DNA of 64,000 bases, from contig OX597830.1 in the NCBI GenBank assembly GCA_951406725.2, forward strand, positions 13,516,001 through 13,580,000, in the 5' to 3' direction. The position numbers were made by a program, and so were the translations under genes. Positions 17,505-62,209 of this stretch are shown one piece after another (position 1 is the stretch's first letter; each line of letters opens with the position of its first letter). Below the pieces are notes generated by a model. It was not told the DNA's origin. It saw only the letters and a list, made by a program, of their open reading frames with translations, and made no database searches. The DNA comes from Octopus vulgaris. Lineage: Eukaryota.

Positions 17505-18125
17505 AAGGAAGTAAAGCACACAGTTTACATAGTTTTAAGATACTTTTAAATATTTTAAAAGATATTTTACTTAGTTTTAAGATATTTTAAAATATATTTT
17601 ATGAATGAATGAGTATTATGTTTGTCGACCGGTTTCACTTTCGCTAATCATGACATTGAAATTATTATAATTTCCTAATTTCTTAAAATTTTAGTACATC
17701 TAAGGGGAAAGTAATTGGTGATCGTTATTATTGGGGACAAGGGAGATAACTGCTCATCTTTCGGGGAGGCGATAAATATATATACAAAAATTCAAAAGTT
17801 AAAGTTGTGAGATGAAATATGTACAGTGATAGGTATGTTATCATGAATTAAAATATATACTGAGACCAGTCTTGGTTATGCGTTCATTTGTAGACGTGTT
17901 CAGCATTTTTCGATGAACAAATTTTCTTTATTTAAACATTCTTGTACATAAATGATTTGTTTGCACAAGAAGCTAGAAAAACTGTGAAGTGTGGTTGGAG
18001 ATTACCTGCACATCTCTCTATGTGTTCACTCAAAGGAATCTGTCTGCATTGCGGGAATCGGATCTGTTCCTTGTGCAGTGTGGTTCACTATCTCAGTGTC
18101 ATACTTGACAATAGTCCCCAGTCAA
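17500..18125 (-). pseudogene. Penelope-like element 3' end: GIY-YIG endonuclease C-terminal relic plus degenerate hammerhead
   Basis: Reverse complement reads SMTLR**TTLHKEQIRFPQCRQIPLSEHIERCAGNLQPHFTVF..QECLNKENLFIEK; downstream tgtc-ATGATTA-gcgaaagt-GAAA-ccgg-TC-gaca at 17623-17655. Confidence 0.65.
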
Positions 18126-60614: not shown

Positions 60615-60679
60615 TATATCCATTCATCCATTCATTCATCTTTTCTGTCGAATATTCCTAGGATAGTTGGGCCGGGGAA

Positions 60680-61180
60680 AAGTAAAGTCCCTAGGCAGCA
60701 TCTCCATACAGTCGTAGGGTCCTAACAGGAACAGCCGTCATTACATTTTCCAACTGGATTCCCAAGCGCCACCTACCGAGATTGTTGATACAATGCAGCC
60801 GTCTCGTTGTCGGTGTGTCCCTAGGCATCCTGTCGATTGGCTCGGTTTGAAGAATCCGTCCTGCGATCTTTCCCTCCAGCATTCCGTGGTTATGAACTTC
60901 TTAATACATAGAAACAGTGGCTCGACTTGGTGAGACATCCTGGTTTCCGTGTTGCGCATCCCGTCTAGTAACTTTATTCTAGCGATTTTTCGAATGAGCA
61001 CCACTTGTATTCGTGAGTGTACTCTCGACTGATATAGTGAGTGCATTACTATGCAAGCACATGCAACTCTTGGCTTCAAGTAAGTCTCCTGCTTCCCAAC
61101 ACTTGTGAATACAGTCTCGGGATTCTTCAATTTCTCTACTTGTCTCAGTGATATTTCTTTGAAGAGTTCACTGGAAAGAC

Positions 61181-61183: not shown

Positions 61184-61256
<73 letters not shown>

Positions 61257-61258
<2 letters not shown>

Positions 61259-62074
61259 CGTAAAATATATTTGCTGATTAAATGTGACGGTCCCATAGAG
61301 AACGATATTACCGTTGTTTTTAGCCCCATATCTCCTCCAGCTGGCTAACAACACACTGTCCGTATCCGTTTCATATTTGCGAGGGAAGTTCATCACTCCC
61401 ATCTCTAGCCTTACATGATACACACAGGCCCGTGTTTCTGGGGTAGTTACCCGTCTTCAGCGTCTGATAATCACCAGTTAGTGATGAAAACTCATTTCAC
61501 TCGCAAAATACTATATGCTCTTTCAAGCGACAACTTGAAACTGATCTCGAAAAAGGAGATATATGCTATATTAGATCTCTCAGCGAGAGGTAAACAGTAA
61601 CAGTACGGAATCGTGAAATATATTTGCCAACTAAACGTGGCGGTCCCGTAGAAAACGATGCTACTGTTGTTTTTAACCGCAGGAAAACATCTCCTCCTGC
61701 TAGTTAACGACGCACTGTCTGTGTCCCATGAGGATTTGCGAGGGGTGTCATCGCTCCCATCTCTAGTCTTACGTGATACACACATACCCGTGTTTCTGGG
61801 TAGTTACCCACTTTCAGAGTGTGATAATCACCACATAGATATAGTCAGATACTGAAAACGGGGTAGAGGTGAGAGCGATGACCTCCTGTCGCAAAGACTA
61901 ATCGGACATAGACTGTATCGTTAGCCAGCTGAAGGAGATGTCTTCCTGGGGCTAAAAACCAACAGTTACATCGTTGTCTATGGGACCGCCACATTTAGTT
62001 GACAAACATATTTTACGATTCCGTACTGTAAGCAGTGTTTACCGCTCTCTCAGAGATTTATTATAACCTATATA
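61257..62074. mobile_element. Tandem ~355-bp units each with a minus-strand hammerhead motif, plus an inverted partial copy
   Basis: Direct copies start at 61257 and 61610; hammerhead motifs at 61421-61466 and 61779-61823; inverted copy 61864-62074; related to the 57.1-57.6 kb element. Confidence 0.78.
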
Positions 62075-62095
62075 TAAATATATATATATATAGGC

Positions 62096-62170
<75 letters not shown>

Positions 62171-62171
62171 C

Positions 62172-62209
<38 letters not shown>

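What the first reader, a model, noticed from the sequence alone, without database searches (positions are those of the whole stretch)
61257..62074. Tandem hammerhead-bearing ~355-nt units plus an inverted copy: candidate retrozyme or circular-RNA retroelement family
Seen: two diverged direct copies (from 61257 and 61610) each carry a minus-strand hammerhead. Copy 1 is cagacg-CTGAAGA-cgggtaactacccca-GAAA-cacggg-CC and copy 2 is cacact-CTGAAAG-tgggtaactaccca-GAAA-cacggg-TA-tgtgtg, with cores about 357 nt apart. An inverted partial copy follows, and there is no ORF. Established: non-LTR retrozymes are non-coding 170-400 nt tandem units delimited by type I hammerheads that give circular RNAs, and Penelope-like elements carry hammerheads in direct or inverted pseudo-LTRs. 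Inference: this is a non-autonomous ribozyme-processed retroelement family, probably mobilised by Penelope RT. Each copy here has at least one core mutation, so these copies are probably inactive.
Basis: partly seen in the sequence, partly recalled or inferred. Interest (0 to 1): 0.7.

Follow-up and report, generated by a model that had tools for sequence, protein, structure and literature searches.

The report
Old Penelope-inserted hammerhead retrozyme copy
This is a decayed copy of a scattered, protein-free 358-base repeat that carries a predicted self-cutting RNA; the shape of its insertions says it was likely pasted into the genome by a Penelope-type jumping gene, probably from a circular RNA, which makes it a new example of a known kind of element.

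Summary
Window 61257-62071 is one insertion of a dispersed 358-bp non-coding family (A; 59 distinct insertions examined). The family majority carries a full type I hammerhead. Six compensatory changes against two sister families (B, C) support the fold; Rfam models do not detect it. Both window cores are damaged, and family A looks old and probably dead.

Insertions carry the Penelope-like element (PLE) signature. Arms have random 5' ends and two fixed 3' ends about 48 nt apart (the 'tail'). They join head-to-head and sit in (AT)n. Where both ends could be classed, the two arms use different 3' ends in 12 of 12 A and 19 of 20 B insertions. No A arm adjoins a PLE ORF (0 of 59), and the unit matches no sampled PLE terminal repeat, so it is probably not a pLTR remnant. 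Arms run through the predicted cut site, so the template was a circle or an uncut multimer. Cleavage, circles and expression are untested.

Verdict: new member of the metazoan non-LTR retrozymes. The scan noted the same kind before, in this genome and others. The young sister family B is the testable system.

The parts
61257..61833 (-). Long arm, 1.6 units (unit positions u134 to u358, then u1 to u358); 5'-truncated, ends at fixed 3' end 1
   Evidence: L001 1501-2077, 89% to family majority
61415..61475 (-). Type I hammerhead, copy 1: core CUGAAGA at 61460-61454 intact; cleavage triplet GCC instead of GUC (site after 61427); one extra C in stem II; helix III palindrome broken
61773..61832 (-). 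Type I hammerhead, copy 2: core CUGAAAG at 61817-61811 (G8/A9 changed); triplet GUA (site after 61785); helix III palindrome broken
61427..61784 (-). Predicted cut-to-cut monomer, 358 nt
   Evidence: read from the sequence; majority period 358
61834..61860 (.). 27-nt junction between the two 5' ends (head-to-head)
61861..62071 (+). Inverted short arm (u199 to u358, then u1 to u49); 5'-truncated, no hammerhead, ends at fixed 3' end 2
   Evidence: L001 2105-2315, 87%
62020..62071 (+). PLE-type 'tail': about 48-nt extension present on this arm only
61185..61256 (.). (CA)n plus short (AT) tract flanking end 1 (target microsatellite)
62069..62204 (.). (TA)n tract flanking end 2 (target microsatellite)

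Best explanation
This is an old, damaged insertion of a non-coding 358-bp hammerhead-bearing repeat (a non-LTR retrozyme) that was likely copied into an (AT)n tract in trans by a Penelope-like RT/endonuclease, probably from a circular RNA. Inferred cycle: (1) a locus with two intact hammerheads is transcribed; (2) the type I hammerheads, likely as a dimer through their palindromic helix III, release a 358-nt monomer that is likely ligated to a circle; (3) the PLE protein would cut both strands of an (AT)n target, and each strand would prime cDNA at one of two internal start sites, 176 and about 224 nt downstream of the cut; (4) RT runs through the cut site and stops at random, giving arms of up to about 2 units; (5) the two 5' ends are joined head-to-head, often with a few shared bases. 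Shown: the family, the fold by covariation, the end geometry, the target, and no attached ORF. Inferred: cleavage, circle, enzyme.
For: Hammerhead: majority sequences of families A, C and B (aligned in 58) differ by compensatory changes at the 3-8 core pair (C-G in A and C, U-A in B), at four stem I pairs, and in a helix III palindrome (CCCGGG, CUCGAG, CAUG). 35 of 69 A hammerheads and 45 of 47 B hammerheads keep core, GAAA and NUH. Circular monomers fold with z -5.6 (A) and -7.0 (B). Pairs changed on both sides stay paired more often than a simple null: 17/27 (null 11.2), 19/26 (11.3), 23/30 (12.8). PLE signature: 60 of 93 A arms and 71 of 81 B arms end at one of two fixed sites; (AT)n follows 34 of 60 and 61 of 71 of these; all inverted junctions are head-to-head (31 in A, 27 in B). 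Where both ends could be classed, they differ in 12/12 (P 2e-4) and 19/20 (P 4e-6). End 1 lies 176 nt after the cut in both A and B. This matches the tail and inverted layout in 10.1101/2021.04.23.441226 (passages) and the two RT start sites with both-strand extension in PMC11167929. Autonomous PLEs in this genome show the same two ends and (AT)n flanks. With short queries, 17/30 A and 19/29 B arms pass the cut site and only 3/30 and 1/29 stop at it. Arms of one insertion share derived variants more often than different loci do (A 9.0 vs 3.8 per kb; B 11.3 vs 4.3 per kb). One family C insertion has a PLE RT fragment fused 5' of the arm between two (TA)n tracts (L117).
Against: Rfam hammerhead models hit neither the window copies nor intact copies. 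Stem II of A and C starts with a C.A mismatch. One-sided changes are not kept above the null (e.g. 12/39 vs 12.4), and for A read in B or in C the combined P is only 0.07-0.08. Antisense circles also fold well (z -4.8, -5.4), so the z-score does not show strand or circularity. No A>G strand excess was found (A 33.4 vs 30.9 per kb, P 0.54; B P 0.14). No autonomous PLE with a homologous end was found, so the partner is unidentified. 33 of 93 A arms end elsewhere. The chimera is a single case, in family C, and could be a deletion between neighbours. PMC11167929 found that uncut RNA was the dominant substrate in vitro and that hammerhead cleavage was not needed, which weakens the circle step.
Confidence: 0.72

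Rival explanations
1. Same element and same PLE machinery, but the template is an uncut tandem transcript from a multimer source locus; the hammerhead is dispensable for insertion and no circle is needed.
For: PMC11167929: hammerhead mutants insert normally in vitro, and no reads ended at the cut. All end statistics fit this equally well.
Against: Products are 5'-truncated, so sources must be longer than products. The longest arms found are 1.93 units (A) and 2.61 units (B). Among the first 100 of 138 exact B hammerhead matches only three same-strand pairs lie within 800 bp, and no long array appears. The core is conserved with compensatory changes across three families.
Confidence: 0.2
2. The unit is just the terminal repeat (pLTR) of an extinct autonomous PLE; the copies are 5'-truncated remains.
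For: Same architecture as PLE ends. bioRxiv 10.64898/2026.07.22.740005 relates Xenopus retrozymes to pLTRs. Only three PLE families were inspected closely, out of 6136 GIY-YIG first-look candidates.
Against: 0 of 59 A and 0 of 51 B insertions have a PLE ORF hit next to an arm; the nearest is 547 bp away. 42 of 93 A arms exceed one unit and continue into another unit, not into an ORF. Unit profiles hit no terminal repeat in 33 plus 20 PLE loci; the hits were separate insertions.
Confidence: 0.06
3. A DNA-level repeat (satellite or fold-back element) with a chance hammerhead-like motif.
For: No Rfam hit. No RNA-editing asymmetry.
Against: Random 5' ends with fixed 3' ends, dispersal over many chromosomes without long arrays, and covariation of the catalytic 3-8 pair.
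Confidence: 0.02

Closest known systems
Metazoan non-LTR retrozymes (Cervera and de la Pena 2020, PMC7229834; passages and part 3 of 6 read), especially the mussel 350-390 bp repeats
   Same: Non-coding tandem unit of 358 bp, GC 45%, one type I hammerhead per unit, highly self-paired predicted circle. A mismatch at the base of helix II is also reported for axolotl HHR_Amex2.
   Different: No long arrays found (at most 1.9 units in A). The passages read do not describe fixed tail ends or head-to-head arms for retrozymes. Cleavage and circles are not shown here, and the window copy is mutated.
Penelope-like element insertions and pLTR hammerheads (PMC4209133, parts 1-2 of 4; 10.1101/2021.04.23.441226 and PMC3846280, passages; PMC11167929, parts 1-2 of 4)
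   Same: Partial tandems, inverted 5'-truncated copy, tail on one end, AT-rich or microsatellite targets, palindromic helix III, U3-A8 core variant (family B).
   Different: No ORF. Tail of 48-59 nt rather than 30-40. The hammerhead has a 6-bp stem I with an internal loop and a 4-bp stem II, not the minimal PLE form.
Li, Clavereau and Pollet 2026 preprint (10.64898/2026.07.22.740005, parts 1-3 of 5 read): retrozymes as non-autonomous PLE derivatives
   Same: Same conclusion on dependence on PLEs.
   Different: Their evidence is co-occurrence and pLTR homology, mainly in vertebrates. Here it is insertion geometry, and the unit shows no homology to the sampled pLTRs.

Membership tests
non-LTR retrozyme | Type I hammerhead in each unit | tested here: met
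   Majority motif and covariation across A, B and C; 35 of 69 A copies intact. Not detected by Rfam. Both window copies are mutated.
non-LTR retrozyme | Tandem unit of about 170-400 nt | tested here: met
   Period 358; 42 of 93 arms exceed one unit and 10 hold two hammerheads
non-LTR retrozyme | Non-coding, GC below 50% | tested here: met
   GC 0.447; longest ATG ORF in the majority trimer 26 aa; no tRNA gene in 5 loci
non-LTR retrozyme | Highly self-paired monomer | tested here: met
   Circular MFE z -5.6, 63% paired; in silico only, and antisense also folds well
non-LTR retrozyme | Self-cleavage | not testable with these tools
   Needs in vitro transcription
non-LTR retrozyme | Expressed as linear and circular monomer RNA | tested here: inconclusive
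   Only contigs of runs not on record as RNA were available
non-LTR retrozyme | Target site duplication, when present longer than 4 bp | tested here: inconclusive
   Both ends lie in (AT)n tracts
non-LTR retrozyme | No LTR, PBS or PPT | not tested
   No dedicated search; arms have random 5' ends, unlike LTR elements
'active' retrozyme (Li et al. 2026 criterion) | Two consecutive complete hammerheads | tested here: not met
   Window copy: GCC triplet in copy 1, changed G8/A9 in copy 2. Met by family B locus L264.
autonomous PLE or its pLTR | RT + GIY-YIG ORF between the repeats | tested here: not met
   0 of 59 A insertions adjoin an ORF hit; no tblastn hit at the window element
autonomous PLE or its pLTR | Unit homologous to a PLE terminal repeat | tested here: not met
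   nhmmer on 33 and 20 PLE loci; other PLE families were not sampled
PLE-type insertion | 5' truncation, partial tandem, inverted copy at the 5' end, tail on one end, AT-rich target | tested here: met

The most novel reading that the evidence does not exclude
These families record the integration step of animal retrozymes. One RNA circle is engaged by a PLE RT/endonuclease dimer; each cut target strand primes at a different one of two start sites (different ends in 31 of 32 classed insertions); RT rolls through the ribozyme junction; and RT can switch between retrozyme RNA and PLE mRNA (L117). The circle is recognised by a conserved fold, not by pLTR sequence. Young family B and the intact 781-aa PLE, which share the U3-A8 hammerhead core and the (AT)n target, would allow reconstitution.
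Probability: 0.4. Interest if true: 0.6.

Novelty: new member of a known kind. Interest (0 to 1): 0.36.

Why it matters
The papers read propose that PLEs mobilise animal retrozymes from circular RNA but support it by co-occurrence and homology. Insertion geometry gives independent evidence and predicts exact RT start positions. The window copy itself is a fossil of little consequence. It led to a young sister family with intact dimers and to an intact PLE ORF in the same genome, which together make the question testable. The scan has reported this kind repeatedly, so the class-level surprise is low.

Tried and rejected
Rfam: no hammerhead hit. Single-copy folding of the window hammerheads did not give the hammerhead fold (z 1.02 to -1.27). 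A unit-like piece 1.3 kb behind a PLE ORF (L055) first looked like the autonomous partner's pLTR; it is a separate family C insertion in (AT)n, and that PLE has its own ends. The family B arm beside a PLE in L056 is likewise separate. Following the RT fragment of L117 to its family gave a PLE whose terminal repeat is not homologous to the units. A>G editing asymmetry: none. A pile-up of 5' ends at the cut: none (4 of 93 vs 2.9 expected; 2 of 81 vs 2.5). Sequencing runs: no RNA holder listed; contigs of runs guessed to be RNA hold pieces of B and A but cannot show ends, strand or circles. A search for longer A arrays found none above 1.93 units. A CTC-loop-GAG hairpin shortly before end 2 occurs in A, B, C and one PLE tail but not in another PLE; it is too short to count. 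MAFFT misaligned helix III of B, so one search was used for that part. Literature searches; the search 'octopus, Penelope, hammerhead ribozyme' listed one paper. No supplementary files were read; those of PMC7229834, PMC4209133 and the 2026 preprint could list this family.

Full report
Observation. The window is from a 2.8-Gb, microsatellite-rich animal genome (G000, contig C17). Two direct copies start at 61257 and 61610 (79% identical) and an inverted copy follows. The minus-strand hammerhead cores start at 61460 and 61817. Against the family majority the three pieces are two arms of one insertion: a minus-strand arm of 1.6 units (61257-61833, 89%) and a plus-strand arm of 0.6 unit (61861-62071, 87%). 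The arms are joined 5' to 5' by 27 nt and flanked by (AT)/(CA)n and (TA)n.

Family. The unit gave 2280 first-look candidates, of which 40 were scored. Three searches fetched 79 loci, which reduce to 59 distinct insertions. The period is 358 bp. The 30 best full copies are 88-95% identical to the majority. One exact 33-nt hammerhead motif exists genome-wide. Family A is therefore old and probably inactive (inference). Two sister families turned up. C has a 357-bp period and is 78% identical to A. B has a 360-bp period, is 56-59% identical to A and colinear, and its copies are 97-99% identical to their majority, with 138 exact 42-nt hammerhead matches.

Ribozyme. The A majority reads: stem I (6 bp, internal loop, 5 bp), CUGAAGA, C.A plus a 4-bp stem II, GAAA, palindromic CCCGGG, UC, cut. 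Across A, C and B the 3-8 pair changes from C-G to U-A, a variant described in PMC4209133. Four stem I pairs change on both sides and stay paired. Helix III stays palindromic (CCCGGG, CUCGAG, CAUG), the form that favours double hammerheads in that paper. 35 of 69 A and 45 of 47 B hammerheads keep core, GAAA and NUH. Against this, Rfam detects none of them. In the window, copy 1 has GCC for GUC and copy 2 has changed G8/A9, and both have lost the palindrome. Copy 1's catalytic strand and copy 2's GUA could in principle pair as half of a dimer, but the second cut needed for a monomer is doubly impaired (inference).

Whole-unit fold. Majority monomers fold as circles with z -5.6 (A) and -7.0 (B); antisense gives -4.8 and -5.4. 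A long rod extends stem I, and a multibranch domain holds the two 3' end sites. Pairs changed on both sides stay paired above a simple null in five of six comparisons at P<0.03 (the sixth, P 0.09). One-sided changes do not.

Insertion signature. 60 of 93 A arms end at u358 or u46-49, and 71 of 81 B arms at b301 or b360. 5' ends are scattered. (AT)n follows 34 of 60 and 61 of 71 fixed ends. All 31 A and 27 B inverted junctions are head-to-head. Where both ends could be classed, one arm has each end in 12 of 12 A and 19 of 20 B insertions. I dropped a locally duplicated pair in L021; with it, the smaller set gave 11 of 12. The other 19 A and 7 B junctions have at least one arm ending elsewhere. 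Junction overlaps of 1-5 nt are common in B (19 of 27). End 1 is 176 nt after the cut in both families. This is the layout described for PLEs: partial tandem, inverted 5'-truncated copy and a tail on one end (10.1101/2021.04.23.441226, passages; PMC3846280, passages). The tail ends are the two RT start sites of a purified PLE protein that extends both target strands (PMC11167929).

Partner. The genome holds PLEs with RT and C-terminal GIY-YIG, including many 781-aa open frames. Two PLE families show two 3' ends about 30 nt apart, (AT)n flanks and U3-A8 hammerheads. Their terminal repeats are not homologous to the units, and no A or B arm adjoins an ORF hit (0 of 59, 0 of 51). One family C insertion (L117, 1 of 25 C loci) has a 415-bp RT fragment fused directly 5' of the arm, on the same strand, with (TA)n on both outer sides. 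That is what a template switch would leave, but it is a single case.

Template. With 100-nt queries placed just before end 1, 17 of 30 A and 19 of 29 B arms run through the cut site, 3 and 1 stop within 6 nt of it, and 10 and 9 are shorter. A linear cut monomer was therefore not the usual template. A circle is favoured over an uncut multimer because arms reach 1.9 to 2.6 units while no long source array was found. PMC11167929 shows that uncut RNA can be the substrate, so this step stays open. Arms of one insertion share derived variants 2.4 to 2.6 times as often as different loci, which fits one template or one source per event. No editing asymmetry was seen. Expression could not be judged.

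Comparison and verdict. It works like, and on every feature that gave a clear result here is, a metazoan non-LTR retrozyme (PMC7229834). It is not an autonomous PLE or a sampled pLTR. PLE mobilisation is proposed in that paper and in 10.64898/2026.07.22.740005. I found no paper on this family in four searches and read no supplements. Earlier notes of this scan describe the same kind in this and other genomes; a sequence look-up found no note on this unit. New member of a known kind; interest 0.36.

Noticed in passing
L056:1440-1990, L065-L094, L165-L194, L264 (G000:C10:96123292-96123691): Young sister family B (360 bp, U3-A8 hammerhead, 97-99% to its majority, 138 exact motif matches). L264 holds two intact hammerheads 358 nt apart in a 2.4-unit arm.
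   Followed up: yes
L095-L119: Sister family C (357 bp, CUGAUGA core, 78% to A, 2647 first-look candidates) with the same end positions.
   Followed up: partly
L117:883-1737: PLE RT fragment fused directly to a family C arm between two (TA)n tracts; possible template-switch chimera.
   Followed up: partly
L052 (G000:C16:20834000-20842000): Intact-looking PLE: 456-bp direct repeats, an upstream open frame of about 346 aa with no convincing Pfam hit, a 781-aa RT + GIY-YIG frame with a CX4CX2C linker (Neptune-like, label recalled) and a U3-A8 hammerhead. Many 781-aa copies genome-wide.
   Followed up: partly
L006:780-1235, L120-L134: A different, palindromic repeat family (1705 first-look candidates) shares about 85 bp with unit positions u241-325.
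   Followed up: partly
L004:870-903; L228:7123-7310: Further hammerhead-bearing relatives of the unit with different flanking sequence; probably more sister families.
   Followed up: no
window 60640-61176, minus strand: Repeat fragment with a 128-aa stop-free frame (P0001, no Pfam hit at E<=1). It recalls the C-terminus and 3' UTR of a restriction-like-endonuclease non-LTR retrotransposon (recalled, untested). The retrozyme sits in the (CA)n tract beside it.
   Followed up: partly
window 17977-18108, minus strand: Short GIY-YIG-like PLE fragment (tblastn E about 1e-8).
   Followed up: no
L055:1821-4983: 5'-truncated PLE with a 766-bp perfect inverted copy, head-to-head, in (AT)n.
   Followed up: partly
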